Both the position numbers and the translations under genes were made by a program. Below are positions 16,339-64,000 of a DNA stretch of 64,000 nt, in pieces. Below the pieces are notes generated by a model. It ran no database searches. It was not told where the DNA came from and worked only from the letters and a program-made list of their open reading frames with translations. The stretch is from Candidatus Omnitrophota bacterium (GTDB taxonomy: Bacteria; Omnitrophota; Gorgyraeia; Duberdicusellales; 4484-171): positions 132,547-196,546 of the forward strand of contig PMCS01000029.1 in assembly GCA_003154195.1 (NCBI GenBank), written 5' to 3'. Every line of letters starts with the position of its first letter. Position 1 is the stretch's first letter.

Positions 16339-16423
16339 TGGGCGAGGAGGGAGTCGAACCCACACGTCCCTTACGGGACAGCAGATTTTAAGTCTGCGCT
16401 GTCTGCCATTCCAACACTCGCCC
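16339..16423 (-). tRNA. tRNA-Leu (anticodon TAA), class II with long variable arm
   Basis: Anticodon loop CTTAAAA; variable arm GTCCCGTAAGGGAC; GGTTCGACTCC T-arm. Confidence 0.75.
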
Positions 16424-16806
16424 AATTTTAATTTTTACTTCGTAAAAATTAAAATTGCCGCCCCCTTTTTACTGAACAAGTTCAGTAAAAAGGGGGAAAT
16501 GCATATAAAAGTGAGTAATTTTTCAATTTGTTAAACGATCGACAAGACTTTAAATATTTGCCGATTGTTATCTATTTTGGTTTTTGTTTCTTCTCTTTTC
16601 CCATCCACGAAGTGGATACCACTTTTTATTTCTGCCTATAGGCAGAAATAAAAAGGCGACGAGCGGATTTTTGAGCACCTTAATACATTATATAGCGAAA
16701 TCCCGCCGAGTATTTCAAAAATATCGAAGAGATTTTTGAAATGTTTACGAGACGGGAGAACCGCTCTCCCCCACCTTCCCGGATTCCCTATCCAAATTAC
16801 CAAACG

Positions 16807-16878
16807 AGGCGACGAGCGGATTTGAACCGCTGGATAGCGGTTTTGCAGACCGCTGCCTTACCACTTGGCTACGTCGCC
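16807..16878 (-). tRNA. tRNA-Cys (anticodon GCA)
   Basis: Anticodon loop CTGCAAA; 3' 17 nt duplicated at 16654-16670. Confidence 0.7.
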
Positions 16879-31638: not shown

Positions 31639-31712
31639 GTCCCCATCGTCTAGCCTGGTTTAGGACATCGCCCTTTCACGGCGACGGCGCCAGTTCAAAT
31701 CTGGCTGGGGAC
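31639..31712 (+). tRNA. tRNA-Glu (anticodon TTC)
   Basis: GTCCCCATCGTCTAGCC...anticodon loop CTTTCAC...GGGGACG; 3' 17 nt duplicated at 31815-31831; flanked by twin AT-rich hairpins. Confidence 0.75.
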
Positions 31713-31888
31713 GCTTTTTTTGGAAAAGTAGTTCTTCAGCCCAAGCGAGGCCAGTTCTCTCGCCTGCACTTCGTTCGGCGGGATTTCGCTGGATAGCGGC
31801 ATTACGGTGCTCAAAAATCTGGCTGGGGACGTTTTATTTTTTACTGCGTAAAAAATAAAACCTTTCCGCTTCGCGGGTGCAAAAACTA

Positions 31889-46276: not shown

Positions 46277-46635
46277 AAAAAAAGAAAAAGGACCTGGAAA
46301 TATCGTTTTATGAAGGTTTGATCAAAGAACGCCCCGAATTCGTTCCGGCGCTGCATTCGCTGGGCGATGCCTACACGCGCCGGGGTTTTTATCAGGAGGG
46401 CTTGGAGGTCGATAAAAAATTAGTCCGCCTGCGGCCGGACGATCCGGTGGTGCATTATAATCTCGCCTGTAGTTTTTCTCTCACCGGAGAAATAGACCAG
46501 TCACTCGCTGAGTTAAAGAAAGCGGCGCTTTTGGGTTACGATGATTTCAGGTATATCTTAAAAGATTCCGATTTAGCCAACGTGCGCAAGCACCCGCAAT
46601 TCAGCGAGTTTTTCGCAAAACTTAAAAAAACATAA
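46273..46635 (+). CDS. TPR repeat protein
   Basis: ALHSLGDAYTRRGFYQEGLEV / HYNLACSFSLTGE TPR-like helices; start overlaps upstream stop. Confidence 0.5.
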   Translation: MKKKKKDLEISFYEGLIKERPEFVPALHSLGDAYTRRGFYQEGLEVDKKLVRLRPDDPVVHYNLACSFSLTGEIDQSLAELKKAALLGYDDFRYILKDSDLANVRKHPQFSEFFAKLKKT

Positions 46636-46640
46636 AGCCG

Positions 46641-48710
46641 ATGACACAGGATAATCGCCGAAAATATATACGAATATCCACGGTACTGCCGGTGGAGTTT
46701 TATATTTTAGATTCTAACGGCAAACAGGTTACGCCCTGGCTGCAGGGTTTCAGCCGCGACCTGAGTCGGAGCGGCATGGGCTTGATTGCCAATGACCTCT
46801 GGAGCGGTTTTGTCCCGAGGGTGAACTTTAAAGGCGCGCCGCTTAATTTAAAAATCAACCTTCCTTTTAAAAACAACTCCATTCCGATGTGCGCCCAGGT
46901 TGTCTGGTTCAGCCAAAAAAATGTCGATGATTTTACCCAATATTTCTTAGGTTTAGAATTTACCGGCCCGGACCGAATCGCGGCGGGTACAATTTTTCAA
47001 TACGCGCTTTTTAAGCAGCGCCTTCCCTGGGCGATTGGCGCGCTGATGGTGATTTTATCCGCTGCTTCCTTATCTTTTTTCTGGAAATCGGAAATCGCCG
47101 CCCGGGAAAATAAAAGGCTGGTCAGTGAGTATGTCGATATCGCCGATAAATCCGCGTCCCTGGCGAAAGTTTTAGGCAAGGAAAAAAATACGGCGCTTCT
47201 TTTCCAGAAAAGGCAGAAAGAGCTCGCCGAAGAAATATCTTTCCTTCAGAATGATTTAGCCGATTGGCAGAAAAAATACGATTCGCTTTTTCAGGAACAC
47301 CTCAAGGTTCAAAATGATCTTCAGCAAAATACTCAGGCATCGCGGCGCGAAGAAGACGGCCGGCAGAAAAACTTAGCGGAACAGAAGCTTTTGTTCCAGG
47401 CCCAGGGATTGATGAAAGAAAAAATCACTCGGCTCGGCGATGAGCTGGCGGCGGCGAAACGGGAAAATACATTTCTTAAAATTAAAGAACAGGAAATCAT
47501 TGCCCAGGCCGACGGCACGCGTAAGGCGGCCGCGGAACTCGCGGCCGACAAAACCCGATTTTCCCGGAAGGTCATCGAAGGGATGTACGCCTGGATTAAA
47601 AACCGGCAAGACCTTAAAACCGGCCTGGTTTTAAGTTATGAAGGCGACGCCGACCTCGACCAGATGTGTTTCACTTATGACCAGGCCCTGGCGGCGATTT
47701 TATTTATTGAACAGGGCGATACGGCCGCCGCCGATAAAATTTTAAGTTTTTATCTAAAAACAATAAAATCCGGAGAAGATATTTTTAACGCCTATTACAC
47801 TCAAGGGTCGGCCGCGGAATACGTCGTCCATTGCGGCCCTAACGCGTGGCTCGGCTTAGCGGTTTTAACTTATATCAAGAAAACAGGAGACGATAAATAT
47901 TTACCCATTGCCGCAAAGGTGAGCGAATTTCTTTTGAGGATGATGGATTCCGACGGAGGGCTAAAAGGTGGGCCTAAAGAATCGTGGTATTCCACGGAGC
48001 ATAATCTCGACGCCTGCGCTTTTTTTAATTTATTTTATGAGTTAAAAAAAGAGCCGCGCTATAAAACCGCCGCGCAAAAAATAAAAGGATGGATTAATAA
48101 ATATTCTTATACCCAGCACGGCCCTCCCATAAAAAGAGGCAAGGGGGATGCCACCATTGCTACCGATACTTATGCCTGGTCCGTGGCGGCATTTTATCCT
48201 CAGGAGCTTTTGGAGATGAAAATGAATCCCGACGCGATTCTTGATTTTGCCGTGGACAATTGCGAAGTCGAGGTAAAATTTCTTCGTCCCGATCAGGAAG
48301 AAATCGCGGTTAAGGGTTTTGATTTCGCTAAAGTCAGAAATACCGCCCGGGGCGGCGTTGTTTCCGGCGAATGGACGGCGCAAATGATTTTATCGTTCGA
48401 GATTATGGCTGATTTTTATAAAGATAAAGACCGGGTAAAATATAATGATTATCTGCAAAAAGCTTTGCTGTCTTTCAATGAACTCGCAAAGATGGTTATT
48501 ACTTCACCTTCCCGGCCCGGCAAGGTCGACCCCTGCCTTCCTTACGCTTCAAGGCCGTCTGCCGATACCGGCCACGGCTGGCGGACGCCCAAAGGCAACA
48601 GTACCGGTTCTTTATCGTCGACGGCATATTTTATTTTTGCTTATCGCGGCTATAACCCTTTAAAAGCGCAAAAATTAAGCCTATCGCTTGAAGATACAAA
48701 AACGGAATAA
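46641..48710 (+). CDS. PilZ-domain membrane protein with coiled coil and C-terminal alpha/alpha-toroid-like domain
   Basis: N-terminal RRKYIR (RxxxR) and DLSRSGMG (DxSxxG) c-di-GMP-binding motifs; TM segment; heptad-rich region; C-terminal helical-repeat domain of uncertain family. Confidence 0.55.
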   Translation: MTQDNRRKYIRISTVLPVEFYILDSNGKQVTPWLQGFSRDLSRSGMGLIANDLWSGFVPRVNFKGAPLNLKINLPFKNNSIPMCAQVVWFSQKNVDDFTQYFLGLEFTGPDRIAAGTIFQYALFKQRLPWAIGALMVILSAASLSFFWKSEIAARENKRLVSEYVDIADKSASLAKVLGKEKNTALLFQKRQKELAEEISFLQNDLADWQKKYDSLFQEHLKVQNDLQQNTQASRREEDGRQKNLAEQKLLFQAQGLMKEKITRLGDELAAAKRENTFLKIKEQEIIAQADGTRKAAAELAADKTRFSRKVIEGMYAWIKNRQDLKTGLVLSYEGDADLDQMCFTYDQALAAILFIEQGDTAAADKILSFYLKTIKSGEDIFNAYYTQGSAAEYVVHCGPNAWLGLAVLTYIKKTGDDKYLPIAAKVSEFLLRMMDSDGGLKGGPKESWYSTEHNLDACAFFNLFYELKKEPRYKTAAQKIKGWINKYSYTQHGPPIKRGKGDATIATDTYAWSVAAFYPQELLEMKMNPDAILDFAVDNCEVEVKFLRPDQEEIAVKGFDFAKVRNTARGGVVSGEWTAQMILSFEIMADFYKDKDRVKYNDYLQKALLSFNELAKMVITSPSRPGKVDPCLPYASRPSADTGHGWRTPKGNSTGSLSSTAYFIFAYRGYNPLKAQKLSLSLEDTKTE

Positions 48711-51190: not shown

Positions 51191-51472
51191 ATGATTACTG
51201 TCCAACAAAATACCACATTGATTGGCGTGTCGGAATTACGCACCAAGATGGAGCAATTATTAAAAAAACTGCCGGGGACAAAGGTAGTCATCGAAAAACG
51301 GCATAAACCCATAGCTATTCTTATGTCTAATGAAGAATACGAAAAGACTGAACAGCTTTTAGAAATGGCCGAAGATATTGTCCTGGGCTATTTGGCCAAA
51401 TCCCGCTACGAGAATACCAAGGAAAAAGAATACATAGATATCGAAGAAGTCCTGAAGAAATTGGGACATTAA
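51191..51472 (+). CDS. Phd/YefM family antitoxin
   Basis: 93 aa; Phd/YefM fold pattern; immediately upstream of RelE-like gene. Confidence 0.7.
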   Translation: MITVQQNTTLIGVSELRTKMEQLLKKLPGTKVVIEKRHKPIAILMSNEEYEKTEQLLEMAEDIVLGYLAKSRYENTKEKEYIDIEEVLKKLGH

Positions 51473-51477
51473 CCCCG

Positions 51478-51780
51478 ATGTGGCAGGTAAAAATACACTC
51501 CCTTGTTTTAGAAGAAGATTTTAGAAAAATCAACCACCACGATCAAGCCCTCATTTTAAAGACTATTTACAAAAAATTAAGCTTATCGCCCCAGGAATAC
51601 GGCGAAAAATTAAAATATGGCTTAAAAGGCTACTGGAAATTGAAAATATCCCATTATCGGGTGATTTATCGAATAGAAAACGATAAAATTTTGGTTTTAG
51701 TCCTTAAAATAGACCTGCGCCGCGACCAAGAAGTTTACCGGGAAATGCTGAGCCACCTGAATAGACCGCAGTCAATATAG
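51478..51780 (+). CDS. RelE/ParE family toxin
   Basis: LKGYWKLKISHYRVIYRIENDKILVLVLKI matches the RelE/StbE core. Confidence 0.75.
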   Translation: MWQVKIHSLVLEEDFRKINHHDQALILKTIYKKLSLSPQEYGEKLKYGLKGYWKLKISHYRVIYRIENDKILVLVLKIDLRRDQEVYREMLSHLNRPQSI

Positions 51781-52194
51781 CTTGGACATTAATATTCCTA
51801 AAACAATATATTATAATAAGTTACAGAAGTTATGGTAAATATTGTAGGGGCGGTATTTCTTCGCCCAGATCAAGTTATCGGGTGCAAAAACCACGCTCCT
51901 TCCCCGCAATTTTATCCATTTTTTATCTTTTTAAATTTCATCGGGATTAGCCGCAAAAATGTTTTGTCCCCCAGATTATACCTTTTTTGTTCAATTCCCC
52001 TAATTTTTTACAATATTATCGGAAAAACGCCAGGAAAACGTTCCCCGATTTGTAAACGCTTGCGGTAGAGGAGTCAAACAGCCTTGTAACTACCTCTTAT
52101 ATAATGTTATGCTTAATTGTAAGGTATTCTTAGGTAAGTGAATTGCACAAAGTATGTAGGTAAGAAACAGACCAATAGTTGAGGGGATACAGCG

Positions 52195-55100
52195 ATGCTG
52201 ACAAAATTTTCTCCTCCACACCGCGACTTGTTTTTTAAGAGCCTGATATTTTTTCTCGCCTTGGTTTTTTTCACGACCAGCCTGGGCGTCCAATACATCA
52301 TGCCCGGCGCTTACGCGTCCAATCTGATTTTACCCCGGCCCAATCAATTAATCAACACGACGCCTTCGTTCGATCTGCCGTTTTTGCGCGGCTTAAAGAT
52401 TTATCCCGACGAGCCGTTTAAATTCGATTTCATCCTCGATGAGGGCAACGCCGCTTATAACAACAAAGATTTAAAAACCCAATCGAATAGCCTGATTAAA
52501 TATTTTTTAGCCAGCCTTACTATTCCCGAATCCGATTTCTGGGTGAACCTTTCGCCTTACGAAGGCGACCGCATCGCGCCGGAAGAATTGAGCCGGACTG
52601 ATCTCGGCCAGGATTTGCTGGCGCAGGATTATCTCCTCAAACAATTGGTCGCTTCGCTTACCTATCCTGATTCGCCGCTGGGAAAACAATTCTGGTCCAA
52701 GGTATACCAGCGCGCCTACGAGCTGTTCGGAACGACTAAAATCCCGCTCAACACGTTTAATAAAATCTGGATTGTGCCGGATAAAGTCACGATTTACGAG
52801 GATGAGGGCAAAGCAATCATCGGCGACGCGAAATTAAAAGTGATGCTGGAAGAGGATTATCTTTCCTTGAAAGAAAATATTTCCAACCCCCAATTCAAGA
52901 CCGATACCATCGCTAACGATAAAGCCGAAGATATCAACTCGTTTTCTTCCCGGATTATGAAAGAAGTGGTGGTGCCGGTGATTGAAAACGAAGTCAATAC
53001 CGGCAAGAACTTCGCTCCGTTAAGGCAGGTCTATTACTCGCTGATTCTGGCTACCTGGTTTAAACTAAAATTGAAGCAGACGGTTGTGGCGCAGATTTAC
53101 GCCGATAAGAAAAAAACCAACAGCGTTAACAGCGACGACCCGGCAATGAAAGAAAAAATCTACCGCCGGTATTTAGAAGCATTCCAGAAAGGGATTTATA
53201 ACTACGTCAAGCGGGATTTGGATTTAGGCACCAAGCGCTATGTCCGGCGCCGCTATTTCAGCGGCGGAGCGGATATGAGAACGGCGACCGCGACGGTTTC
53301 TTCCGGTTTGGTACCATTCGCCAAGATTATTTCTTCGCCGGCGGCTACGGCGGCGTCTAATGGCCACCTGAGAAGTGTGGAGACGGAATTAAAGGCCGGC
53401 ACTATTGGCAATCCGATTGAGAATACGGCGCCTAAACCTCTTTCTCGAAAACCCAATAATATTTTGGAACGAAGCTTTGTGGTGTTGAAAAATCTGAGAT
53501 TCAGCCAGCTCGCCGGGGATAATCATAAAGTAAAACGTCTTTTTTCCCAGGTTCGGCTGGCCGGAAACATCTTAATCGATACGGAGCATAAATTATTTCC
53601 CCATCAGAATACGGCAGAGTTTAAAAATGCGGTGTTCAAAAATTTGCTCGACCAGAATTGGGCCGCGCTGCACAACCAAAGCCCGGGGCGGGCGCTTTTG
53701 GCTAACCCCCTCTTTGTCGCCGCAATGGCCTACTGTGCTTACACCCTCGACGATGCCGCCGGTAATAGAGAATACCAGAATAAACTTGACCGATACCTAT
53801 CGGTCTTAAACTTAGGTCCCCGCCAAATCGAAGCGATAAAAACAACCGCGCGTAATCAAGTAGTCAAAGCAGAGCAAGAACGAGTTAAAAAAACGATAGG
53901 GCAAGGGCGGCTTTCGCTGCCTGCTAAACCAGCAAATAGTAAGGGAGAAATGCGTGTCGCTGTTGGTTCGTCCGCCTTATCTAAAGCTCCCGTCTCCGCC
54001 TCGCCGCTGCCGTCCATAGTTGACTCCAAGCCGTCGCTATTTAAGCGGGTCGCCGATGCAATTGTCGCGGCTGCCCCTCCCAAGGTGACGGGCCGGGCGT
54101 GGGAAAGTTCCGGTACGGCTAATCTCGCTGTAGCGGTTGACGGCTATACAATCCAGGCCAGGGTTGACGTAGATAATAAAACCGGTGAACCTTTAGTCTC
54201 GGCCGGCCGGATACATGATATCGCCAAGGAAGTGCTTTATATGACCAGTACGGATTCCCAAGCCATTTCCGCCGGAGCCCTTCCCGCGACAATTACCATA
54301 AGAGTAGCACCAGTAAAAGACAGTATTTTCCCGGTTCAGCATACACCCGGGGTGATTACGATTAACCGGGCAATCGTAGAGCGGATTCGCAACCCCCGTT
54401 TGCGCGAAATATTTATCGAGGCCAGCATATTCCACGGTTTGTCCCGGGAATTAGGGGTAGATGCCCAAACCCTGGCGCGAACAGATGCCGCTTGTTTAAT
54501 AGGATTGGCCAAGTCCCAACACGAATCGAGCGAGGTTAATATTTCCCGGGCCGAGCTGGAAACGAATTTACGCCGCATCAGCCGGATTAATAAAAGCGCG
54601 GCGGCTGATGCGCTTTTATTCAGCGCGCTAAAAGGTTATCCCGTAAATACAATTGATATGGACCCAAAAATGGGGCCGGGAAGCATGGCCGATTATCAAA
54701 AGGCGCTAAGGGGACACGCCGCTAATTTTAGAAGCTTGCTGCGCACTGGACAGAGCGCAGATAAAAGCGCAAAAATTAATGAGGCTTTAAAAAGATTTGG
54801 GGAATTTTGCCGGCTGAAAGAATTATGGTCTCGTAACTCTTTTAGCCCTGAAGAGGCCACATTGGTAGAGGCGGTTGAACAAGAGCGTCAAAAAGCATGG
54901 AAAGCAATCGAGAAAGAGTTTAACGACCAGGGCTATCATGTTTATGGTAAATTTATGGATTCGGGGAGAAAAGAAGATAGGCTTTTTGTTCTTCAGCATA
55001 TCGAAGAAAGAAGGGCTTTGCCGGAAGACTTTGGCCGTCAGGAAGTCTGGTTTGTCCGGCAGGAAACTGAGTTGCCCGGAGGCCGGGTCCCCGGCGGCGC

Positions 55101-58100
55101 GGGGTTTACCGAATTATTTTCCGGCGACGGAAGTGCCATCAGGGTTGACCGCAGCAGCATTGAACGAACCGATGATCAGCTAATTGCGCCGTATCGTGAA
55201 ACGCGAGGAGCACATGTTTCCGAGGTTGATGACAGGTTAGGCGCTTTTGCCGTTTCCTATGGGCAATTAGCGCACGTTTACGCCCAGACCGGCCAGGTTC
55301 AGCGTTTACAAGACCAGGAAGAGGAAGTATTTTTTCGTGAAGCGCTGCAGTCTATTTTGGAACGCGGTATCGGTAAAGATAATCTAGACAAACTGCGAGG
55401 AAAAAACCTGAGGGATGGCGAGGATGATTTTAAACGGCTGCAGCGCCTGGGAGAAAAATTGGTACATTTAGCGACAATGGAAAAATCCGGCAATCCCCTT
55501 GCGGTTTTTTTGGCGGAGATACGCCGAGGTTTTGACCAGAGGATAATCATAGATGACAATGGGGAGATAGACCGCGTCCCCAGCGAAGCAATCCTGACCG
55601 CTTTGGCGCAACAAGCATCTGGGCAAGATAGCGTGGCCGGCACCGAAGCCGGCAAAACAATGTGTCGTGATTGGTTTTCTTTTTTGGCGGAATCGCAATC
55701 TTCGCAAGAAGAATATAATCATCGGCTGACTAGCCTTATCACACAAGAGCTTGGACAGGTACGCCAAGCCTTTATCGCGGAATGTAGTAAGCATGATTTT
55801 TCCTCGAGATGGGAAATCGTTTTTGACCAGTTTATGGCAACCCCCACGGCAAATTTGCTTAACGTTGCCTCATCCGCCTTAACTAAAGCTCCTGCCGTTG
55901 CCTCACCAGTGCGCGCGTGGTTAACTAAGCGGTCTGCTTCGGTCAGAGCGAAGCTTACTTCCTTTGGAGTCCGGCTCGGCGATACGCGGGATTCATTAAG
56001 CCGGCGGCTCGCTCCGTTCAGGCTCAGGCTCGGCGCCGCGCGGGATTCGGCGAGCCGGCGGATTACTTCGTTTCGAGCCCGGCTTGCTTCCCTGAGGACT
56101 TCCCTGAAAAGCGGGTTCGTCAGCGCGCGGGATTATGCAAGCAACCGGGTTACTTCCGCAAGCAACAAATTGACCGGTCTAACACTTAGAGCTTACATCG
56201 CGCAGGATTCAACGCGCCGGCAGATTAATGCGTTTGGAGAAAGGGTTGCTTCCCGGTCCCGGGCAAAGTTCGTTTCCCTTGGAAAAAGGCTTGCTTCCCG
56301 ATCTCGGGAAAAATTCACTTCTCTTAGGTTAAAGATTCAAGGTGAGCCTGCCGCGCAAGGTAATCCAAGACGACTTAAACAACTCCAAGCTTTAAGCATG
56401 TGGAGCCTGAATACAGCTGTACATGCTGCCGCCAAAAAAGCAGAATTTGACCCGGACGAACAATTACCCATTGCCATGGGGGTTTTTTTCATTGGGTGGG
56501 TTTTAACACATCCCGAGCAGGCTTTAAAAACGTTGTTCTCTAAAAGAATAGAGCCGGGCACCGCGCGGGATTCCGTGAGCGGACGGGTTGCTTCCATCAG
56601 GGAAACATTGGCTTCTCTAAAAGCTGGAATCGGATCATTGTTTAGTCTAATCCTTGTGGATATGGGGTCGGCCATTGTTGGCAATCCAACCAGAGCAGGG
56701 GTAAATAATGACGTAGGTGCACCAGTAGGCGAACTGAGCATGCTTGCCGCAGAGACTTCCAGCGAGGTTTCTTCCGCGGTGGTGGAGGCCAAAGGGTTAG
56801 AATCTACCCCGATATTTGGAACTAATAATGTCGCTGTCATCGCCTCGCCGGTTTTGGCTTCTTCCGCGGCCGGGGAAGTCAGGGAAATAGAAATTAAAAC
56901 TTTATTTTCTCCTAATACCAGTGATGGCACAGCCGCTTTATCATTAGAAAATATAGCTGATATGTGGAAGAGAGAGTCTCAGAGAGGTTTACCACTGAGA
57001 TTCCGTTTAAACGGGGCAAGCCTGATGGGAAATACCACGGAATTATTATTAACCCGCGCCAAGCAGGCGTCCCAGAGGAAAGAGTTACGGCCCTTGGTCA
57101 GGATTATTTTAAGAGTGGCAGCGCGGAAAGACCCACAATTATTATTATTCCGCGCTATTCAAGCGCATAATGAGAAGTCCGATCCTTTCGCAAGGCTGAT
57201 TCTGGAAGCGGTGGCGCAGGAAGACAAAGGATTATTGTTATCACGCGCTATTCAGGCTCATGACGAAAAAACCGATCCTTTAGCCAGGCTGATCTTGGAA
57301 GTGGCAGCGCAGAAGGACCCGCAATTATTGCTTACCCGCGCCAAAGACGCATCCCGGGATGGTTTTTTCCCTTTGGCGATACTTATTCTTGAGGTGTTAA
57401 AGGACAAAAACCAGGATGAACCAGATTATCCTTATCACGCGGCTTACGCGTATTGGCATCGAGACGCCCCAAGTGGTCGCATAGAAAAAATAGATTTTCT
57501 CCAAAACGCGCAGAAAAATTTCAGAATCGCCGGGAGACTTTACAGGAAACTTTATGAGAGTGAGAGGTCAGGTAAGAATGAGCACAAGGTTCAATTGGGT
57601 CATTGCGCGGGAGAATTTAAAAATATACAAAAAGATATAGACAGAATTAAAAGCCAGTTGATGGAAAGTGAGTCTGAAGAATCTGAACAATGGGTGATGA
57701 TGAAAGATGCTTACGAAGATTTAATTTGGACGGAGAATATCAGTAAGGAACATACGCCGGGTAGAGTTGTTAGTGAAGCAATGGTGGGCCAGCTTCAAGA
57801 TCTTTTGGCAGCGTTGGATCGTTCGACATTACAACCAGTTATTATCGCGTTCGCGGCAACCTTTAATTTATTACCCGAAAATGCTAGTGATGGTACCCAA
57901 ATGTTTGACGAAAAACATATAAAAGCCATAGAAGATTCAATCGCAGACCCTAAGTCGAGTTGGGAAACGCTTAGTAGAAAATACCAAGTGGGTGGTTTAT
58001 CTACGAGGCATAATGGCGTCGCCGAAGAAGCTTTTGAAAGAATAAAAGAAACGATTGTTAAGGCTAGAAAATCCGCTTTGAGTATAGAATCCGGGGCATT

Positions 58101-59619
58101 GCAAGATGATGGCGAAGCCCTTTTAAGCGGCAGCTTCGGCAGAGATAATGGGGCTGGCAGCCTGGATTCCGCGATTGACGATTTGTTTGGTTCCGGCGGA
58201 ATTTTTGGCGGCGATGAAGCAATAACTCCCGCGCAGGAACCCGATTCCCTTGTTGTCCTTCCTCTTGCCGACGGCCAAACATCTTCGAACGCGGCGAATC
58301 ACCGGGAAATAATGCTGACGTGGGAGAAACAACGCAGGCAAGCCTCCGCTTCGCCGGCTTTGGCCTCGTCCACCGCCTTGCCGGTAGAAAGTATTGTCGA
58401 TTCTTTAAAGCGTATATTCGTGAATGGACACGCCGCGATACACGGGGAAAATATAGGCCAATCGTTGGCCTCTGCTTTCAGGGCTTCTCTCGACGCCGCC
58501 ACATTTAATAGCTTTGTACCAATGGCGGTGGCGTGGGGTACGTCTTTTATTGCCTCCTTGGTATCAGTAAGACAACAACGCAGATTTGATTCTTGGGTAT
58601 CTGAAATAGAACGAAGCAGAGAAGCGGTAAGCAATGTCCCCGATGTTGGGCATGAGTTAAGCCTGGATGATATCACAATTATCGGCGGTCATTCTACTTC
58701 TGAAAGCACCAGTGTGGAACAAGGCGTCGCCGCCTCGCCGGCGCCGGTAATGCATTTATTTGAAAATTCTTCAATAAAAGTCGAATTGGAAATATCCGCC
58801 GGGAATGTTGATGTATTGCAAGGACTTGCCGAGGCTGTTTCTATCGGATATAAGGAGGCATTATTTAGAGAAAACGGCGGCTTGATTGTCGGCCGCCTTG
58901 AAGGCAATGTGTATACTGTTACCGGGTTAATTCCTCTTGTCCGTTCGATAAGGACCGACGCTTCTATCACGTTCGATAAAGAAGAGATTAGAGAAAGGAT
59001 CGAAGGCTTGCTCCCGAATGTAATGGTATTGGGGTTGTACCATAACCATGGTTATCATCGTTCTTTTTCTGCTAACTATAAGCCTGGCCCCAGCCAAGAC
59101 GATGCCATTATCGATGATTTGAACATTGAAGAATTAAAACATCGGATTGTTGCTAATCGATTAGGTTTAATCGTGGAAGCAGCCCCGCAGTTATCATTCG
59201 AGGCTTTAGTGGCAAGCGAAGGTGAGCCAGTGAAGCCGTCGATGAGCGATGTAGGAGTATACGGTTATATTACTCCTAATCGTGGTGAAGATGGCAAGAT
59301 AAGACAACCAATTAATGAAAATGGCGTACCCATCGATGCAATAAACCGATTTTTCGCGGATAATAGAAAAAAGCCGGGAACCGTTTCTTCTCCCTCGGGT
59401 ATTAAAACCCCCGGCGGTATCGATTTGGGCGGGGATAAGATGAAAATGCAGATAATCGACCAAAGACCAAAGACCGTAGACCAAAGACAAGAAATACAGG
59501 GGGCGGCGAGCGCCATGGCGATAAAAGGATTGCCGTTTGATATCAACAAATTCGAGGGGTTTACTTTTAATATCATCAAGATCGAGAAGGTGAAAAGTCT
59601 GGCGGCGATGCTTAAGTGA
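52195..59619 (+). CDS. giant (2474 aa) secreted/surface repeat-containing protein, function unknown
   Basis: Uninterrupted 7.4-kb ORF; N-terminal signal peptide/TM; Arg/Ser amphipathic ~19-aa repeats (aa ~1250-1390); three ~38-aa LLLxRAIQAHxEKxDPxARLILE repeats (aa ~1620-1730); higher GC than surroundings; only short antisense ORFs inside. Confidence 0.7.
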   Translation: MLTKFSPPHRDLFFKSLIFFLALVFFTTSLGVQYIMPGAYASNLILPRPNQLINTTPSFDLPFLRGLKIYPDEPFKFDFILDEGNAAYNNKDLKTQSNSLIKYFLASLTIPESDFWVNLSPYEGDRIAPEELSRTDLGQDLLAQDYLLKQLVASLTYPDSPLGKQFWSKVYQRAYELFGTTKIPLNTFNKIWIVPDKVTIYEDEGKAIIGDAKLKVMLEEDYLSLKENISNPQFKTDTIANDKAEDINSFSSRIMKEVVVPVIENEVNTGKNFAPLRQVYYSLILATWFKLKLKQTVVAQIYADKKKTNSVNSDDPAMKEKIYRRYLEAFQKGIYNYVKRDLDLGTKRYVRRRYFSGGADMRTATATVSSGLVPFAKIISSPAATAASNGHLRSVETELKAGTIGNPIENTAPKPLSRKPNNILERSFVVLKNLRFSQLAGDNHKVKRLFSQVRLAGNILIDTEHKLFPHQNTAEFKNAVFKNLLDQNWAALHNQSPGRALLANPLFVAAMAYCAYTLDDAAGNREYQNKLDRYLSVLNLGPRQIEAIKTTARNQVVKAEQERVKKTIGQGRLSLPAKPANSKGEMRVAVGSSALSKAPVSASPLPSIVDSKPSLFKRVADAIVAAAPPKVTGRAWESSGTANLAVAVDGYTIQARVDVDNKTGEPLVSAGRIHDIAKEVLYMTSTDSQAISAGALPATITIRVAPVKDSIFPVQHTPGVITINRAIVERIRNPRLREIFIEASIFHGLSRELGVDAQTLARTDAACLIGLAKSQHESSEVNISRAELETNLRRISRINKSAAADALLFSALKGYPVNTIDMDPKMGPGSMADYQKALRGHAANFRSLLRTGQSADKSAKINEALKRFGEFCRLKELWSRNSFSPEEATLVEAVEQERQKAWKAIEKEFNDQGYHVYGKFMDSGRKEDRLFVLQHIEERRALPEDFGRQEVWFVRQETELPGGRVPGGAGFTELFSGDGSAIRVDRSSIERTDDQLIAPYRETRGAHVSEVDDRLGAFAVSYGQLAHVYAQTGQVQRLQDQEEEVFFREALQSILERGIGKDNLDKLRGKNLRDGEDDFKRLQRLGEKLVHLATMEKSGNPLAVFLAEIRRGFDQRIIIDDNGEIDRVPSEAILTALAQQASGQDSVAGTEAGKTMCRDWFSFLAESQSSQEEYNHRLTSLITQELGQVRQAFIAECSKHDFSSRWEIVFDQFMATPTANLLNVASSALTKAPAVASPVRAWLTKRSASVRAKLTSFGVRLGDTRDSLSRRLAPFRLRLGAARDSASRRITSFRARLASLRTSLKSGFVSARDYASNRVTSASNKLTGLTLRAYIAQDSTRRQINAFGERVASRSRAKFVSLGKRLASRSREKFTSLRLKIQGEPAAQGNPRRLKQLQALSMWSLNTAVHAAAKKAEFDPDEQLPIAMGVFFIGWVLTHPEQALKTLFSKRIEPGTARDSVSGRVASIRETLASLKAGIGSLFSLILVDMGSAIVGNPTRAGVNNDVGAPVGELSMLAAETSSEVSSAVVEAKGLESTPIFGTNNVAVIASPVLASSAAGEVREIEIKTLFSPNTSDGTAALSLENIADMWKRESQRGLPLRFRLNGASLMGNTTELLLTRAKQASQRKELRPLVRIILRVAARKDPQLLLFRAIQAHNEKSDPFARLILEAVAQEDKGLLLSRAIQAHDEKTDPLARLILEVAAQKDPQLLLTRAKDASRDGFFPLAILILEVLKDKNQDEPDYPYHAAYAYWHRDAPSGRIEKIDFLQNAQKNFRIAGRLYRKLYESERSGKNEHKVQLGHCAGEFKNIQKDIDRIKSQLMESESEESEQWVMMKDAYEDLIWTENISKEHTPGRVVSEAMVGQLQDLLAALDRSTLQPVIIAFAATFNLLPENASDGTQMFDEKHIKAIEDSIADPKSSWETLSRKYQVGGLSTRHNGVAEEAFERIKETIVKARKSALSIESGALQDDGEALLSGSFGRDNGAGSLDSAIDDLFGSGGIFGGDEAITPAQEPDSLVVLPLADGQTSSNAANHREIMLTWEKQRRQASASPALASSTALPVESIVDSLKRIFVNGHAAIHGENIGQSLASAFRASLDAATFNSFVPMAVAWGTSFIASLVSVRQQRRFDSWVSEIERSREAVSNVPDVGHELSLDDITIIGGHSTSESTSVEQGVAASPAPVMHLFENSSIKVELEISAGNVDVLQGLAEAVSIGYKEALFRENGGLIVGRLEGNVYTVTGLIPLVRSIRTDASITFDKEEIRERIEGLLPNVMVLGLYHNHGYHRSFSANYKPGPSQDDAIIDDLNIEELKHRIVANRLGLIVEAAPQLSFEALVASEGEPVKPSMSDVGVYGYITPNRGEDGKIRQPINENGVPIDAINRFFADNRKKPGTVSSPSGIKTPGGIDLGGDKMKMQIIDQRPKTVDQRQEIQGAASAMAIKGLPFDINKFEGFTFNIIKIEKVKSLAAMLK

Positions 59620-59793: not shown

Positions 59794-60789
59794 ATGATTA
59801 AAGAAATTGCTACGCCAAAATTAAAAAATCCCGTATGCATCGCCGCCTGGCCGGGGATGGGTGAAGTCGCCTACCGTGCCGCGATTTTTTTAAAAGAAGT
59901 CATGGGGTTTAAAATGTTCGCCAAGCTGGAAGCGGCGGAGTTTTTTAAACCCGCGGCGGTGTTTGTGGAAAAGGGCATTGTCAGCCTGCCTTCGATGCCG
60001 GCGGGATTCTTCTATTACCTCAAGGGAAAACATTTTCCCGATATCATCCTGTTTATCGGCGAAGCCCAGCCGCCCCTGGAATACGCCGAAGACCTCTCTT
60101 ATTCTCTGGTAAATTTCCTGAAAAAATATAAGACCAAATTTATCTTTACCTTTGCTGCCAAGCCGGAGTCGATCGACCATAAGGGTGATTCTTTGGTCTG
60201 GATGGCGGGGACGCATCCGGAAGTCCTCAAAGACTTCGAAAAATTTCATTTAAAGATTTTAAGCGAAGGCCAGATCAGCGGCCTTAACGGGATTATTCTG
60301 GGCGCCGCTAAAAGTAAAGGCATCAAGGGGACCTGCCTTTTGGGCGAGATACCTTTTTACACGGTACAGATAGAAAACCCCAAGGCTACCCACAGTATTC
60401 TTAAGATTATGAACGAGTATCTCCAGCTTAATCTGAATCTCGCGCCCTTGCAGGAAAGAGTAAAATTTATCGAACAGGAAATCGATAAACTGATCGATTA
60501 TTTAAAAGGAGAGGGCGATGGCGCCCAGCATCCTTCTGTCCCCAGCAGCGGCCCGTTGCCGTTAAGCGAAGACGATATCGAAAAAATCAAAAAAGACTTG
60601 GCCGGTTACAGCAAATTACCCCAGTCGGCGCGGGAAACCATTGAGGTGCTGTTTAAGGACGCGCAGAAAGATATCGCCAAAGCCAACCAATTAAAAGGAG
60701 AGCTTGACCGCTGGAACGCCTACAAGGAATACGAAGACCGCTTCCTCGATTTATTCAAGAAGAAAGACAAGCGCGACGAGACCCATTAA
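59794..60789 (+). CDS. PAC2-family (proteasome-assembly-chaperone-like) protein
   Basis: NPVCIAAWPGMGEVA N-terminal signature; family 2 repeat begins right after its stop. Confidence 0.55.
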   Translation: MIKEIATPKLKNPVCIAAWPGMGEVAYRAAIFLKEVMGFKMFAKLEAAEFFKPAAVFVEKGIVSLPSMPAGFFYYLKGKHFPDIILFIGEAQPPLEYAEDLSYSLVNFLKKYKTKFIFTFAAKPESIDHKGDSLVWMAGTHPEVLKDFEKFHLKILSEGQISGLNGIILGAAKSKGIKGTCLLGEIPFYTVQIENPKATHSILKIMNEYLQLNLNLAPLQERVKFIEQEIDKLIDYLKGEGDGAQHPSVPSSGPLPLSEDDIEKIKKDLAGYSKLPQSARETIEVLFKDAQKDIAKANQLKGELDRWNAYKEYEDRFLDLFKKKDKRDETH

Positions 60790-62880: not shown

Positions 62881-63600
62881 ATGTACCAACACCGTTTCTA
62901 CCGCGAATCCATTCCCTCGGCTTTTCGTTTGGAGATTGCCTACCAAGAAAGCGATTTGCTGATTTGTTCCGATAAGCCAATCGATAAAGAATCGGCTTTT
63001 GCCGCCGCGAAGAAGTACCATCGTCAAATAGAAACATACACAAAAATAAACCCGGCCTTTTTAAATTCTCTTTCCCCCCTGCGGCAGGATAAGACCGGCG
63101 CGCCGATTGTTCAAGATATGCTTGCCGCCTGCGCTTTAACCGGCATCGGGCCGTTTGCCTCGGTTGCCGGAGCAATCGCGATGTATGTCGGCGCAGAAGT
63201 CTTTAACGCGGCTGGCGAGTTAATCGTCGAAAACGGCGGCGATATATTTTTAAAAATAAACGAGGATAAAAAACTCGCGGTTTATTTAGGCGAACATTTT
63301 CGCGAGCAAACAATTTATCTTAAAATAAAAAAACGCGCTCAACCCTTCGGTATCGCTTCTTCTTCAGCTTATATCGGCCACAGCCTTAATTTCGGCAAGG
63401 CTGATTTAGTAACCGTGGTCGCCGATGACGCCATTTTAGCCGATGGTTTTGCCACCGCCCTTTCCAATACCGTCAAGACTCCGGAGGATATCCCCGCAGT
63501 AATCGAACGCGCTAAGGCAAGCGGTTGTATCAGCGGGCTGCTTATTGCCGTAGCGGGAAGAATTGCCTTATGGGGGGAGATGGAGATAGATGGCCGATGA
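62881..63600 (+). CDS. conserved hypothetical (UPF0280/ApbE-like resemblance, tentative)
   Basis: GIGPFASVAGAIAMYVG glycine-rich segment; family not certain. Confidence 0.35.
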   Translation: MYQHRFYRESIPSAFRLEIAYQESDLLICSDKPIDKESAFAAAKKYHRQIETYTKINPAFLNSLSPLRQDKTGAPIVQDMLAACALTGIGPFASVAGAIAMYVGAEVFNAAGELIVENGGDIFLKINEDKKLAVYLGEHFREQTIYLKIKKRAQPFGIASSSAYIGHSLNFGKADLVTVVADDAILADGFATALSNTVKTPEDIPAVIERAKASGCISGLLIAVAGRIALWGEMEIDGR

Positions 63601-63722
63601 TCAGGCGGCAGATAAACAGATTGAAATTTTTTTAAAGTTCAATAATTTTAAAAACAAAAAGGGAGTCGAAAACTCGACTCCCTTTTTGTTTGGTAGATGG
63701 TTTTCGCTGAAAGTGAAAACCA

Positions 63723-63804
63723 TGCGCGGGGTGGGAATCGAACCCACACGGGTTACCCCATGCGCCCCTCAAACGCATGCGTCTGCCAGTTCCGCCACTC
63801 GCGC
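63723..63804 (-). tRNA. tRNA-Leu (anticodon GAG), class II
   Basis: D-arm GCGG/CGC, anticodon stem TGCGT/GCGCA with loop TTGAGGG, long variable arm GGGGTAACCC, T-arm GGGTTCGATTCCC; one A-C mismatch in acceptor; 5' 18 nt duplicated at 63923-63940. Confidence 0.65.
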
Positions 63805-64000
63805 GTAATGTTTTCCTTTACTTTCAAAAGTTTTAAGCCTGGCTAATGTCTTATGCTGTCGCGTAAGCATTGCGGGAACCGCGAATTAAAAGCTTATGTC
63901 TTGCTTCGCAAGACCGCGGTTGCCGCCACTCGCGCGTTATTTTTTTGCTTCACAAAAAATAAATGAGTCATGCGTTGCATGACAATTTTCGTATCTTAGA

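What the first reader, a model, noticed from the sequence alone, without database searches (positions are those of the whole stretch)
52195..59619. Giant 2474-aa secreted repeat-rich protein with a long structured leader, downstream of a Phd/RelE pair
A single 7.4-kb uninterrupted ORF encodes a signal-peptide-bearing protein with no recognisable catalytic motif. It has a ~330-aa N-terminal globular region, Ser/Ala-rich linkers, an array of Arg/Ser amphipathic ~19-aa repeats (DNA 55920-56340 shows the corresponding nucleotide repeats) and three 38-aa LLLxRAIQAHxEKxDP-ARLILE repeats. The GC content is visibly higher than that of flanking genes. A 415-nt leader with three TAGGTAAG-like direct repeats (52120-52170) precedes it, and a RelE/Phd addiction module sits immediately upstream. 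Giant surface proteins of this kind are hallmarks of episymbiotic or ultrasmall bacteria, but the architecture here does not match a family I can name.
Basis: partly seen in the sequence, partly recalled or inferred. Interest (0 to 1): 0.75.

Follow-up and report, generated by a model that had tools for sequence, protein, structure and literature searches.

The report
Omnitrophota exported modular cargo protein
The 2474-residue gene is real and belongs to a very large, apparently undescribed family of exported Omnitrophota proteins that keep the same head and tail but swap everything in between; here the middle is an orphan that includes a JAMM-type metalloprotease domain.

Summary
The ORF (52195-59619, +, 2474 aa) is genuine. 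The identical protein is recorded on 4 public contigs, and an independent assembly carries it intact with one substitution and the same gene order.

It is not a one-off giant adhesin. It belongs to a family of thousands of proteins (900 to >4000 aa), almost all from Candidatus Omnitrophota, built on a fixed frame:
- a Sec signal peptide;
- a ~320-aa conserved N-module (43-56% identity);
- a ~65-aa C-terminal 'GGID(L/F)...GF.P.II.I' module.

Neither module is in Pfam, NCBIfam or the PDB. The region between them is hypervariable. In other members it holds verified enzyme domains (phosphoglucomutase, hexokinase, PGK, protein kinase).

In this protein the 1961-aa middle has no homolog in 5.8 billion proteins, apart from one divergent JAMM/MPN+ metalloprotease domain (aa ~2223-2331) directly before the C-module. 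Seven [AS]SP linkers divide the protein into modules. The 31-aa helical and ~18-aa Arg/Ser repeats are real.

N- and C-module subtypes co-vary (r 0.62-0.80) although cargo is unrelated.

Not supported: 'structured leader', GC anomaly, '38-aa' repeat, 'no catalytic motif'.

Best reading: an exported cargo-carrier frame. Its function is inferred, not shown.

The parts
52195..59619 (+). Complete ORF, 2474 aa plus stop. It is a member of the Omnitrophota N/C-framed family.
   Evidence: ORF list. Identical protein P0241 on 4 contigs. Independent assembly L082 is 2473/2474 identical.
52181..52186 (+). Shine-Dalgarno-like GAGGGG, 8 nt upstream of the ATG at 52195.
   Evidence: Read directly from the sequence.
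52195..52317 (+). Sec-type signal peptide, aa 1-41. It has a basic n-region, the hydrophobic core LIFFLALVFFTTSLGV, and a predicted cleavage at AYA|S.
   Evidence: Hydropathy. A41 is a nearly invariant column. Family-wide features: hydrophobic core in 98%, n-region net charge >= +1 in 95%, small-x-small site in 98%.
52318..53268 (+). Conserved N-module, aa 42-358, ending in the Y-F-S-G-G motif.
   Evidence: Covered by all 120 best hits at 43-56% identity. 42 invariant columns. AF2 model pLDDT 70.9. No structural or sequence relative in the PDB.
53332..53340 (+). [AS]SP linker 1 (IISSPAAT, aa 380), just after the N-module.
53998..54006 (+). [AS]SP linker 2 (VSASPLPS, aa 602).
55900..55908 (+). 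[AS]SP linker 3 (AVASPVRA, aa 1236).
55912..56334 (+). Arg/Ser-rich amphipathic ~18-aa repeats (aa 1240-1380). One further copy lies at aa 1455-1480.
   Evidence: Self-similarity scores 56-67 against a shuffle maximum of 41. Weak Apolipoprotein-like match, E 0.021. No DNA tandem repeat by TRF.
56623..56682 (+). Marginal hydrophobic segment, aa 1477-1496 (KD19 1.82). Possibly a TM or buried helix.
56842..56850 (+). [AS]SP linker 4 (VIASPVLA, aa 1550).
57052..57399 (+). About four copies of a 31-aa (93-nt) helical repeat, LLLxRAIQAHxEKxDPxARLILExxAQxD (aa 1620-1735).
   Evidence: TRF 57114-57341, period 93, 2.5 copies. Protein self-similarity 70-97 against a shuffle maximum of 41.
58348..58356 (+). 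[AS]SP linker 5 (ASASPALA, aa 2052).
58513..58569 (+). Marginal hydrophobic segment, aa 2107-2125 (KD19 1.68).
58732..58740 (+). [AS]SP linker 6 (VAASPAPV, aa 2180).
58861..59187 (+). Divergent JAMM/MPN+ (Prok-JAB-like) metalloprotease domain, aa ~2223-2331. Motif residues are E2226, H2283, H2285, S2300 and D2303.
   Evidence: 13 remote relatives in 1.84 billion representatives. Motif residues invariant or near-invariant in alignment A3. The profile hits only JAMM/MPN chains in the PDB, best E 1.9e-5. Prok-JAB matched by 11 of 12 members; the query alone reaches E 0.018, below the gathering score.
59386..59394 (+). [AS]SP linker 7 (TVSSPSGI, aa 2398), 9 residues before the C-module.
59413..59616 (+). 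Conserved C-module, aa 2407-2474: GGIDL...PFDINKFEGFTFNIIKIE....
   Evidence: Present 58-108 aa from the C-end in nearly all complete family ORFs. GG 100%, I 97%, the G of GF 99% conserved. Its HMM hits only N-module genes or their fragments.
51781..52194 (+). 414-nt AT-rich intergenic region. There is no evidence for a structured RNA leader.
   Evidence: Fold z = -0.75. No Rfam hit. TAGGTAAG count not above chance.
51191..51780 (+). Phd/YefM antitoxin (51191-51472) and ParE/RelE toxin (51478-51780). They are neighbours of the gene, not part of the system.
   Evidence: Pfam PF02604 and PF05016. A ParE-like gene lies directly upstream of a family gene in only one other of the 80 loci.

Best explanation
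The gene encodes one paralog of a very large family of modular proteins, restricted or nearly restricted to Candidatus Omnitrophota, that share a constant frame around a replaceable cargo.

SHOWN
- The frame has three parts: a Sec-type signal peptide, a ~320-aa N-module, and a ~65-aa C-terminal GGID(L/F) module.
- Between the N- and C-modules lies a region whose length (about 400 to >3500 aa) and content are unrelated between paralogs.
- That region is often broken into modules by [AS]SP linkers.
- In this protein the cargo is an orphan made of helical and amphipathic repeat modules. It ends in a divergent JAMM/MPN+ metalloprotease domain placed directly before the C-module.

INFERRED
- The protein is exported across the cytoplasmic membrane by Sec, and the signal peptide is removed at AYA|S.
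- The matched N- and C-modules perform a step common to all paralogs: retention, sorting or delivery of the protein outside the cytoplasm.
- The cargo supplies the paralog-specific activity, here probably Zn-dependent peptide or isopeptide cleavage together with protein- or membrane-binding repeats.

SPECULATIVE
- The JAMM domain, or a protease acting in trans, releases modules. Cleavage could occur at the linkers or after the invariant Gly-Gly that opens the C-module. JAMM enzymes characteristically cut after a C-terminal Gly-Gly (established knowledge of the MPN+ family).
For: FAMILY AND FRAME
- 2333 and 3574 clusters with E<=1e-3 among the capped candidates of two searches.
- At least 574 loci in species-representative genomes, all named ones Omnitrophota.
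- Only aa 1-380 and the last ~70 aa of the query are shared with the hits.
- Nearly all complete ORFs carry GGID 58-108 aa from the C-end.
- The C-module HMM hits only N-module genes or their fragments.

EXPORT
- Signal-peptide features across 226 members: hydrophobic core 98%, positive n-region 95%, small-x-small site 98%.
- 142 of 222 members have no further hydrophobic segment.

CARGO REPLACEMENT
- The query's middle has no homolog other than itself.
- Other members carry PGM, hexokinase, PGK or Pkinase domains between the modules.
- Precomputed Pfam lists show many other domain types.

N/C COUPLING
- Pairwise identities of the N- and C-modules correlate at r = 0.80 for pairs with unrelated cargo.
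- Within each hit set r = 0.62 and 0.64, against permutation maxima of 0.13-0.18.

MULTI-COPY AND TANDEM
- Up to 7 genes from one MAG among the best 80 loci.
- Tandem arrays in 10 of 80 loci.

JAMM DOMAIN AND LINKERS
- JAMM evidence.
- In P0265 and P0268 the same domain also sits directly before a C-module.
- Linkers: [AS]SSP[VILA] occurs 46 times observed against 3 in shuffles in the family. The query has 7 sites against 1.69 expected.
Against: - No experiment or dedicated predictor (SignalP, DeepTMHMM) was available. Export and cleavage are inferred from sequence rules.
- There is no conserved partner gene near family loci.
- The AF2 model of a whole 795-aa member was too poor to show whether the N- and C-modules interact (pLDDT 58; C-module blocks 42-57).
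- N/C co-variation could reflect plain co-inheritance rather than functional coupling.
- Cytoplasm-type enzymes (glycolytic enzymes, kinases) as exported cargo is counter-intuitive.
- The query's JAMM match to Pfam is below the gathering score (15.4 against 25 bits). Most family members lack a JAMM domain, so self-processing cannot be general.
- Two marginal hydrophobic segments might make parts of the protein membrane-embedded.
Confidence: 0.55

Rival explanations
1. Giant surface adhesin or coat protein. The protein is displayed on the cell surface and mediates attachment to a host or prey cell. The repeats act as binding surfaces.
For: - Signal peptide, large size and repeats.
- The lineage is thought to be host-dependent, and giant ORFs there have been proposed as adhesins (PMC10066038, read; 10.1101/2023.11.21.568195, read).
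Against: - No adhesin, Ig-like, dockerin, discoidin, SLH or anchor domain at E<=1-10.
- The repeats are helical or amphipathic, not beta-rich adhesin repeats.
- Family members carry enzymes rather than adhesion modules.
- A JAMM domain is present.
Confidence: 0.15
2. Self-processing polyprotein. After export, the protein is cut at the [AS]SP linkers and/or after the Gly-Gly of the C-module, by its own JAMM domain or by a protease acting in trans. This would release separate functional modules, in a MARTX-like logic.
For: - Seven regularly placed [AS]SP linkers bracket the N-module, the cargo modules and the C-module. The motif is enriched 15-fold in the family.
- The JAMM domain is adjacent to the C-module here and in P0265 and P0268.
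- GG is invariant at the start of the C-module.
- JAMM enzymes cleave after Gly-Gly (established knowledge).
Against: - Most family members have no JAMM domain.
- Only about 30% have an [AS]SP within 25 aa upstream of GGID.
- Ser/Pro-rich linkers may simply be flexible or glycosylated spacers.
- There are no proteomic data.
Confidence: 0.2
3. Membrane-tethered cytoplasmic scaffold. The N-terminal hydrophobic helix is an uncleaved anchor and the bulk of the protein stays in the cytoplasm. That would explain why paralogs carry cytoplasm-type enzymes.
For: - Cargo domains such as PGM, hexokinase, PGK, kinases, response regulators and HTH domains normally work in the cytoplasm.
- The hydrophobic core of the query is long, about 20 aa.
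- AF2 models residues 10-35 as one helix.
Against: - The n-region is positively charged in 95% of members (mean +2.8). The core is followed by a helix-breaking P/G and a small-x-small or AxA site. By the positive-inside rule this predicts N-in/C-out, that is, export of the bulk.
Confidence: 0.1
4. Assembly artefact, chimera or decaying pseudogene.
For: Internal repeats could mislead assemblers. One public scaffold (L001) splits the gene.
Against: - L001's breaks are N-gaps with junk at their edges.
- The identical 2474-aa product is on 4 contigs from several sources.
- A separate assembly of another sample gives the same ORF with one substitution.
- Both conserved modules are intact and in frame at the two ends.
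Confidence: 0.01

Closest known systems
Giant ORFs of Omnitrophota: 'Archaeovorins' and Dockerin-type giant proteins (West-Roberts et al. 2023 preprint 10.1101/2023.11.21.568195; Seymour et al. 2023, PMC10066038; 2026 preprint 10.64898/2026.06.07.730766)
   Same: - Same phylum.
- Very long proteins that mostly bear a signal peptide or TM segment and have few annotated domains.
- Helical (HEAT-type) repeats are common, and enzyme domains are embedded.
   Different: - Those papers treat ORFs of >= 20 kb or >= 10,000 aa. They describe them as preceded by a T2SS/T4P-like locus and followed by pilZ genes.
- This gene is 7.4 kb and sits among ordinary chromosomal genes with no secretion locus.
- The conserved N-module / GGID C-module frame is not mentioned in the passages I could search.
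MARTX toxins (multifunctional autoprocessing repeats-in-toxin). This comparison rests on my own knowledge.
   Same: - Conserved N- and C-terminal regions flank a variable set of effector modules.
- A protease domain lies just before the C-terminal conserved region.
- Modules are separated by linkers.
   Different: - MARTX toxins have glycine-rich repeat regions, are exported by a type I system without a Sec signal peptide, and use a cysteine protease domain.
- Here there is a Sec signal peptide, unrelated N- and C-modules and a JAMM metalloprotease, and most paralogs have no protease at all.
- This is an analogy of architecture only; no homology was detected.
Polymorphic toxin / effector families, and cargo families with a common sorting tag (T9SS C-terminal domain, PEP-CTERM or GlyGly-CTERM exosortase/rhombosortase signals). 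This comparison rests on my own knowledge.
   Same: - Many paralogs share constant trafficking parts and differ in the functional part.
- The family is multi-copy, with tandem arrays.
   Different: - In polymorphic toxins the variable part is the C-terminal tip and is followed by an immunity gene. Here the C-terminus is the conserved part and no conserved neighbour exists.
- The C-module lacks the TM helix plus basic tail of exosortase or rhombosortase signals.
- No NCBIfam or Pfam sorting-signal model matches.
JAMM/MPN+ metalloproteases (Pfam Prok-JAB PF14464 and JAB PF01398; for example PDB 2kks, 2kcq, BRCC36, Rpn11, CSN5)
   Same: - The E...H-x-H...S-x-x-D zinc-site residues are conserved across the 12-member alignment.
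- The profile retrieves only JAMM/MPN chains from the PDB.
- 11 of 12 members match Prok-JAB.
   Different: - It is a divergent subgroup with a ~7-residue insertion between H-x-H and S-x-x-D (consensus YHNHxxxRLxxxQxPGPSxxD).
- It is embedded in giant exported proteins.
- The query alone stays below Pfam's gathering score.
- No ubiquitin-like partner is evident.

Membership tests
Omnitrophota N/C-framed modular protein family (unnamed; defined here) | N-terminal Sec-type signal peptide | tested here: met
   aa 1-41: n-region net charge +2, hydrophobic core, AYA|S site. Sequence rules only; no SignalP.
Omnitrophota N/C-framed modular protein family (unnamed; defined here) | Conserved ~320-aa N-module (motifs WVNLSPYE, NTFNK[VI]W, LRQ[IV]Y.SLIL, YFSGG) | tested here: met
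   All 120 best hits align over aa ~40-380 at 43-56% identity, E down to 3.6e-130. There are 42 invariant columns.
Omnitrophota N/C-framed modular protein family (unnamed; defined here) | C-terminal GGID(L/F)...GF.P.II.I module within ~60-110 aa of the end | tested here: met
   GGIDL at aa 2407-2411, 68 aa from the end. It belongs to the 'PFD...FEGFTF.IIKIE' subtype shared with P0001-P0005, P0008, P0009, P0020 and P0022.
Omnitrophota N/C-framed modular protein family (unnamed; defined here) | Cargo between the modules that is unrelated between paralogs | tested here: met
   The middle (aa 430-2390) has no homolog but itself. No similarity to about 200 family members with phmmer --max.
JAMM/MPN+ metalloprotease (Prok-JAB, PF14464) | Catalytic motif E ... 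H-x-H ... S-x-x-D | tested here: met
   E2226, H2283, H2285, S2300 and D2303. The columns are invariant or near-invariant in alignment A3.
JAMM/MPN+ metalloprotease (Prok-JAB, PF14464) | Significant match to the family model | tested here: inconclusive
   The query alone scores E 0.018, 15.4 bits, against a gathering score of 25. However, 11 of 12 aligned relatives match (best E 2.5e-5), and the profile hits JAMM chains in the PDB at 1.9e-5.
JAMM/MPN+ metalloprotease (Prok-JAB, PF14464) | MPN fold and Zn-dependent (iso)peptidase activity | not tested
Activity needs an experiment.
   No such Pfam or NCBIfam match, either for the whole protein at E<=1 or for ten segments at E<=10.
Archaeovorin / Dockerin-type giant Omnitrophota proteins (West-Roberts et al. 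2023) | Giant ORF preceded by a T2SS/T4P-like secretion locus and followed by small pilZ genes | tested here: not met
   The gene is 7.4 kb. Upstream are PyrK-like, Phd and ParE genes; downstream are PAC2, YjeF_N and MBL-fold genes. The only PilZ protein (694 aa) ends about 3.5 kb upstream.
Polymorphic toxin system | Variable C-terminal toxin tip followed by a cognate immunity gene | tested here: not met
   The C-terminus is the conserved part. No recurrent downstream gene was found in 80 loci.
Exosortase / rhombosortase / T9SS sorting signals | C-terminal motif plus TM helix plus basic tail, or a T9SS CTD model match | tested here: not met
   No NCBIfam or Pfam match for the tail. The tail has no TM-grade hydrophobic segment.
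Type II toxin-antitoxin-linked cargo | Recurrent linkage of family genes with a Phd/ParE pair | tested here: not met
   A ParE-like gene was found in 2 of the 80 other loci. It lies directly upstream of a family gene in only one of them (L062).

The most novel reading that the evidence does not exclude
The matched N-module and GGID C-module are the two recognition parts of a previously unrecognised, phylum-wide export, sorting or delivery route. Omnitrophota would use it to place hundreds of different cargos outside the cytoplasm, possibly in or on host cells. These cargos include complete cytoplasm-type enzymes (phosphoglucomutase, hexokinase, PGK, kinases). Cargo would be exchanged between frames by recombination at the linkers and, in some members, released by an embedded JAMM protease cutting after the invariant Gly-Gly.
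Probability: 0.25. Interest if true: 0.85.

Novelty: new variant of a known kind. Interest (0 to 1): 0.66.

Why it matters
Omnitrophota are ultrasmall, uncultured bacteria thought to depend on hosts. Their long proteins are recognised as a hallmark of the phylum but are described as poorly conserved and hard to interpret.

This finding shows that a large share of their 1000-4000-aa proteins are not unrelated orphans. They are built on one conserved signal-peptide / N-module / C-module frame with exchangeable cargo.

That gives three things:
- a handle for classifying thousands of 'hypothetical proteins';
- two new conserved domains to model and name;
- a testable idea about how these cells export or deliver enzymes.

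If cytoplasm-type metabolic enzymes are truly exported on this frame, the picture of the Omnitrophota cell plan, or of how they exploit hosts, would change.

For this particular gene, the practical result is a candidate catalytic domain (JAMM) in a protein that looked featureless.

Tried and rejected
LED NOWHERE
- Whole-protein Pfam, NCBIfam and PDB sequence searches gave nothing.
- PADLOC gave nothing. PHROGs gave only a minor-tail-protein match at E 0.069.
- The N-module profile against PDB sequences gave only coiled-coil noise from the variable columns.
- Folding a whole 795-aa member, to see whether the N- and C-modules dock, gave pLDDT 58 and pTM 0.35. The test is inconclusive.
- The afdb50 fold library was unavailable.
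- No second copy of either module exists in this window.

CONSIDERED AND REJECTED
- A conserved operon partner or secretion system next to family genes. The most recurrent neighbour cluster is in only 13 of 81 loci, at variable distance.
- Linkage to the TA pair or to PAC2.
- A viral or mobile origin. Only 3 of 2.9 million viral contigs carry a relative, and there is no GC anomaly.
- A structured RNA leader or riboswitch, and the TAGGTAAG repeats.
- A DNA tandem repeat at 55920-56340.
- Mis-assembly.

LITERATURE
- Three Omnitrophota giant-gene papers and motif-string searches gave no description of this frame.
- The library covers open-access papers only, so absence is not proof.
Full report
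1. OBSERVATION

The window holds a single uninterrupted ORF at 52195-59619 on the + strand, encoding 2474 aa. A GAGGGG Shine-Dalgarno-like element lies 8 nt before the ATG.

The ORF is not an assembly artefact.
- The identical protein (P0241) is recorded on four contigs from NCBI, JGI, Logan and ENA. The longest is 429,721 bp.
- An independent assembly of another sample (L082) carries the same 2474-aa ORF with one substitution (G869V). Its gene order is also the same: PyrK-like, Phd, ParE, giant gene, PAC2, YjeF_N.
- A third scaffold (L001) calls the gene in two pieces. Its differences are runs of N flanked by junk, and it is otherwise 99.98% identical over the 3' 5 kb, including the internal repeats.

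- The N-terminal hydrophobic segment and the AYA|S site are present.
- The upstream Phd/YefM and ParE/RelE genes are confirmed.
- The Arg/Ser ~18-aa repeats (aa 1240-1380) and a helical repeat (aa 1620-1735) are far above shuffled controls.
- The helical repeat has a period of 31 aa (93 nt), not 38.
- No DNA tandem repeat is detectable at 55920-56340.
- The 414-nt upstream region is not structured (z = -0.75) and matches no Rfam family. TAGGTAAG is not over-represented.
- GC of the ORF (0.485) is within about 1 SD of the window's long ORFs and equals its neighbours.

2. WHAT IT IS: A MEMBER OF A HUGE FRAMED FAMILY

The whole protein matches nothing in Pfam, NCBIfam or the PDB. A search of 5.8 billion proteins nevertheless returned at least 2333 significant hits, with the candidate cap reached. 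They are 1400-4100 aa long, and every named one is from Candidatus Omnitrophota.

The similarity is confined to aa ~1-380 (43-56% identity, all 120 best hits) and, in a few hits, the last ~70 aa. Inspecting the hits' C-termini shows a second conserved element, GGID(L/F).P..L.L...G......GF.P.II.I.P...LP.LLG, about 60-110 aa from the end. In 161 aligned tails, GG is 100% conserved, I 97% and the G of 'GF' 99%.

In species-representative genomes at least 574 loci encode the N-module. All loci with an informative title are Omnitrophota. Some TPA MAGs are labelled 'uncultured Planctomycetales', and I could not re-classify them.

Among complete ORFs in 80 fetched loci, nearly all carry GGID 58-108 aa from the end. 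Total lengths range from about 750 to more than 3600 aa.

An HMM of the C-module hits only genes that also have the N-module, or obvious fragments of such genes split by gaps or frameshifts.

The family is multi-copy. Up to seven genes come from one MAG among the best 80 loci, and 10 of 80 loci hold tandem arrays, with three in a row in L017. There is no second copy in this window. Only 3 of 2.9 million viral contigs carry a relative.

3. THE FRAME

The family N-termini look like classical Sec signal peptides. Across 226 members:
- 98% have a strong hydrophobic core;
- 95% have a positively charged n-region (mean +2.8);
- 98% have a small-x-small site shortly after the core, with a strict AxA in 49%, typically A-x-A|Q.

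In the query the site is AYA|S (aa 39-42), and A41 is a nearly invariant column. Of 222 complete members, 142 have no further hydrophobic segment, so the default is a soluble exported protein. The query has two marginal segments (aa 1477-1496 and 2107-2125). That is an even number, so the N- and C-modules stay on the same side whether or not these segments span a membrane.

The C-module matches no Pfam model. It was modelled with low confidence in the context of a whole 795-aa member. Whether it folds alone, docks on the N-module or acts as a linear signal remains open.

Pairwise identities of N-modules and C-modules are strongly correlated.
- r = 0.80 for 17,786 pairs whose cargo shares only background 4-mers.
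- r = 0.62 and 0.64 within each of the two hit lists.
- Permutation maxima are 0.12-0.18.

The two ends are therefore kept as matched pairs while the middle is replaced. This fits functional coupling but could also be simple co-inheritance.

4. THE CARGO

Across the family the middle is unrelated between paralogs. About half of the hits have no Pfam domain there. The rest carry a remarkable variety (precomputed accessions; names partly given by the sources):
- M48 peptidase plus ABC1/UbiB kinase;
- HEAT and TPR repeats;
- GNAT acetyltransferases and methyltransferases;
- response regulators and histidine-kinase ATPase domains;
- protein kinases and PP2C;
- NUDIX and guanylate kinase;
- malate synthase.

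I verified four directly. In each case the enzyme domain lies between the two modules:
- phosphoglucomutase domains I-III at aa 1949-2343 of P0016;
- hexokinase at aa 860-1304 of P0096;
- phosphoglycerate kinase at aa 401-622 of P0152;
- a protein kinase domain at aa 663-846 of P0131.

In the query, the 1961-aa middle has no homolog except partial copies of itself. It shows no similarity to about 200 family members even with unfiltered phmmer.

Seven [AS]SP sites lie in a common context ([VIA][AS]SP[VLAS]) at aa 380, 602, 1236, 1550, 2052, 2180 and 2398. They cut the protein into the N-module, six cargo modules and the C-module. The expected number is 1.69 (P about 0.0015). The stricter motif [AS]SSP[VILA] is 15-fold enriched in the family (46 against 3).

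5. A CATALYTIC-TYPE DOMAIN AFTER ALL

By eye, aa 2226-2303 carry E...H-N-H...S-Q-D-D. A segment scan gave a sub-threshold Prok-JAB match (E 0.024).

An exhaustive HMMER search of 1.84 billion representatives with aa 2196-2400 found 13 further hits. Twelve are credible remote relatives (27-41% identity over ~170 aa), mostly inside other very large proteins. The thirteenth, P0263, was set aside as a spurious match in a repeat protein.

In their alignment G-x-Y-H (with the second His near-invariant), G-P-S-x-x-D and a downstream E-x-x-P are invariant, and the upstream Glu is conserved in nearly all members (by inspection of the alignment).
- The profile retrieves only JAMM/MPN proteins from the PDB: 2kks at 1.9e-5, then BRCC36, 2kcq, Rpn11-like and CSN5.
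- 11 of 12 members match Pfam Prok-JAB on their own, best E 2.5e-5.

I therefore call aa ~2223-2331 a divergent JAMM/MPN+ metalloprotease domain. The fold and the activity are untested.

Four of the relatives (P0257, P0258, P0259, P0268) begin with a signal peptide and a divergent N-module (FWVNLRPD..., LKVMLEQDYL, LRQVYYSLILAQWFK). Three of them (P0258, P0259, P0268) end in a variant C-module that starts GGIDFRALP or GGIDLRALRP; P0257 has no GGID motif. This reveals a sister branch of the same frame. In P0265 and P0268 the JAMM domain sits directly before the C-module, as in the query.

6. SURROUNDINGS

The neighbours are ordinary chromosomal genes:
- upstream: an aminotransferase, a transglutaminase-like protein, a 694-aa PilZ protein, an M20 peptidase, a PyrK-like protein, Phd and ParE;
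- downstream: PAC2-family, YjeF_N and MBL-fold genes.

No gene cluster recurs next to family members. The best is in 13 of 81 loci, at variable distance. The TA pair and PAC2 are not linked to the family elsewhere, apart from one ParE-like gene directly upstream of a family gene in L062. No secretion apparatus is adjacent, unlike the loci described for the >= 20-kb giant genes.

7. HOW IT MOST LIKELY WORKS

Shown: the frame, the replaceable cargo, the co-varying ends, the linkers and the JAMM signature.

Inferred: Sec export with signal-peptide removal, followed by a common post-export step carried out through the N- and C-modules (retention, sorting or delivery). The cargo supplies the paralog-specific function. 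Here that is a metalloprotease plus helical and amphipathic repeat modules that could bind proteins or membranes.

Speculative: processing at the linkers, or after the invariant Gly-Gly of the C-module, by the embedded JAMM domain. This idea is suggested by the known preference of JAMM enzymes for cleavage after Gly-Gly and by the adjacency of JAMM and C-module in three proteins.

Architecturally the closest analogue I know is the MARTX toxin: conserved ends, variable effector modules, and a protease next to the C-terminal region. There is no homology, however, and the export route differs.

Rivals are an adhesin or coat protein, a cytoplasm-facing tethered scaffold, and an artefact. They are weighed in the rival section. 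The scaffold idea is the only one that naturally explains cytoplasm-type enzyme cargo, but it conflicts with the charge distribution and cleavage-site pattern of the N-termini.

8. NOVELTY

Neither module is in Pfam (2025 copy) or NCBIfam (2026). The motif strings and the three Omnitrophota giant-protein papers I could search do not describe the frame.

The general kind is known: large modular exported proteins of Omnitrophota, and families with constant trafficking parts and variable cargo. This particular frame, its scale and its enzyme cargo appear to be new. I rate it a new variant of a known kind, with a 0.25 chance that it marks a distinct export or delivery system.

Noticed in passing
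P0257, P0258, P0259, P0268 (proteins): A sister branch of the family. These proteins have a signal peptide plus a divergent N-module (FWVNLRPD..., LKVMLEQDYL, LRQVYYSLILAQWFK). P0258, P0259 and P0268 end in a different C-module that starts GGIDFRALP or GGIDLRALRP and continues in P0258 and P0259 with ...IVPSSERIKEY...CIA.ILRLEE (P0268 has a more divergent version); P0257 has no GGID motif. SSSSPV linkers separate many modules (methyltransferase-like, HATPase-like and others).
   Followed up: partly
P0016, P0096, P0152, P0114, P0074 (family members): Complete cytoplasm-type central-metabolism enzymes sit behind a Sec-type signal peptide, inside the N/C frame. PGM, hexokinase and PGK were verified directly. 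ICL, aldolase, malate synthase and iPGM are known only from precomputed accessions. Whether these are the only copies in their genomes is unknown.
   Followed up: partly
P0007, P0008: The precomputed Pfam lists give PF14890, which is an intein splicing domain by my knowledge of Pfam, inside two family members. Not verified.
   Followed up: no
L017:2320-12811 (+); also L005, L036, L038, L044, L051, L052, L071, L075, L080: Tandem arrays of two or three family genes in the same orientation. The first two L017 paralogs are 55% identical over their full length. Most other tandem pairs share only the frame.
   Followed up: partly
window 59794-60789 (+): A PAC2-family gene ('proteasome assembly chaperone family'; JGI name 'ATP-grasp superfamily carboligase') lies 175 nt downstream of the JAMM-bearing giant gene. 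It is syntenic in both other assemblies. No linkage to family genes was seen elsewhere, so this is probably coincidence.
   Followed up: partly
window 46626-48707 (+): A 694-aa protein with an N-terminal PilZ domain ends about 3.5 kb upstream of the giant gene. The giant-gene preprint reports small pilZ genes downstream of the >= 20-kb giant genes. The arrangement here is different.
   Followed up: no
L062:1591-1869 and L062:1903-4605 (+): A second case of a ParE/RelE-like gene directly upstream of a family member. That member's N-module has the variant motif WVNLSPN.
   Followed up: no
L001:501-611 and L001:7617-7658: A public ENA scaffold of the same locus contains 10-N gaps flanked by unrelated sequence. 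These split the giant gene and alter the end of the YjeF_N gene. It is a scaffolding artefact that makes the cluster representative (P0121) a truncated 1644-aa protein.
   Followed up: yes
window 15708-16878 (-), 31639-31714 (+), 63723-63804 (-): A cluster of four tRNA genes (Asp-GTC, Val-GAC, Leu-TAA, Cys-GCA), a tRNA-Glu, and a tRNA-Leu(GAG) at the window end. The last one underlies the spurious ORF 63590-63808.
   Followed up: no
L083, L084, L085 (IMG/VR contigs): Three contigs classified as viral encode a family N-module at 48-50% identity. They are probably host fragments or prophage flanks. Not examined.
   Followed up: no
window 62881-63600 (+): The precomputed annotation for the identical gene in L001 lists PF27030 (AbpE_bact). 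My Pfam scan at E<=0.001 returned nothing. The difference is presumably one of Pfam version or threshold.
   Followed up: no
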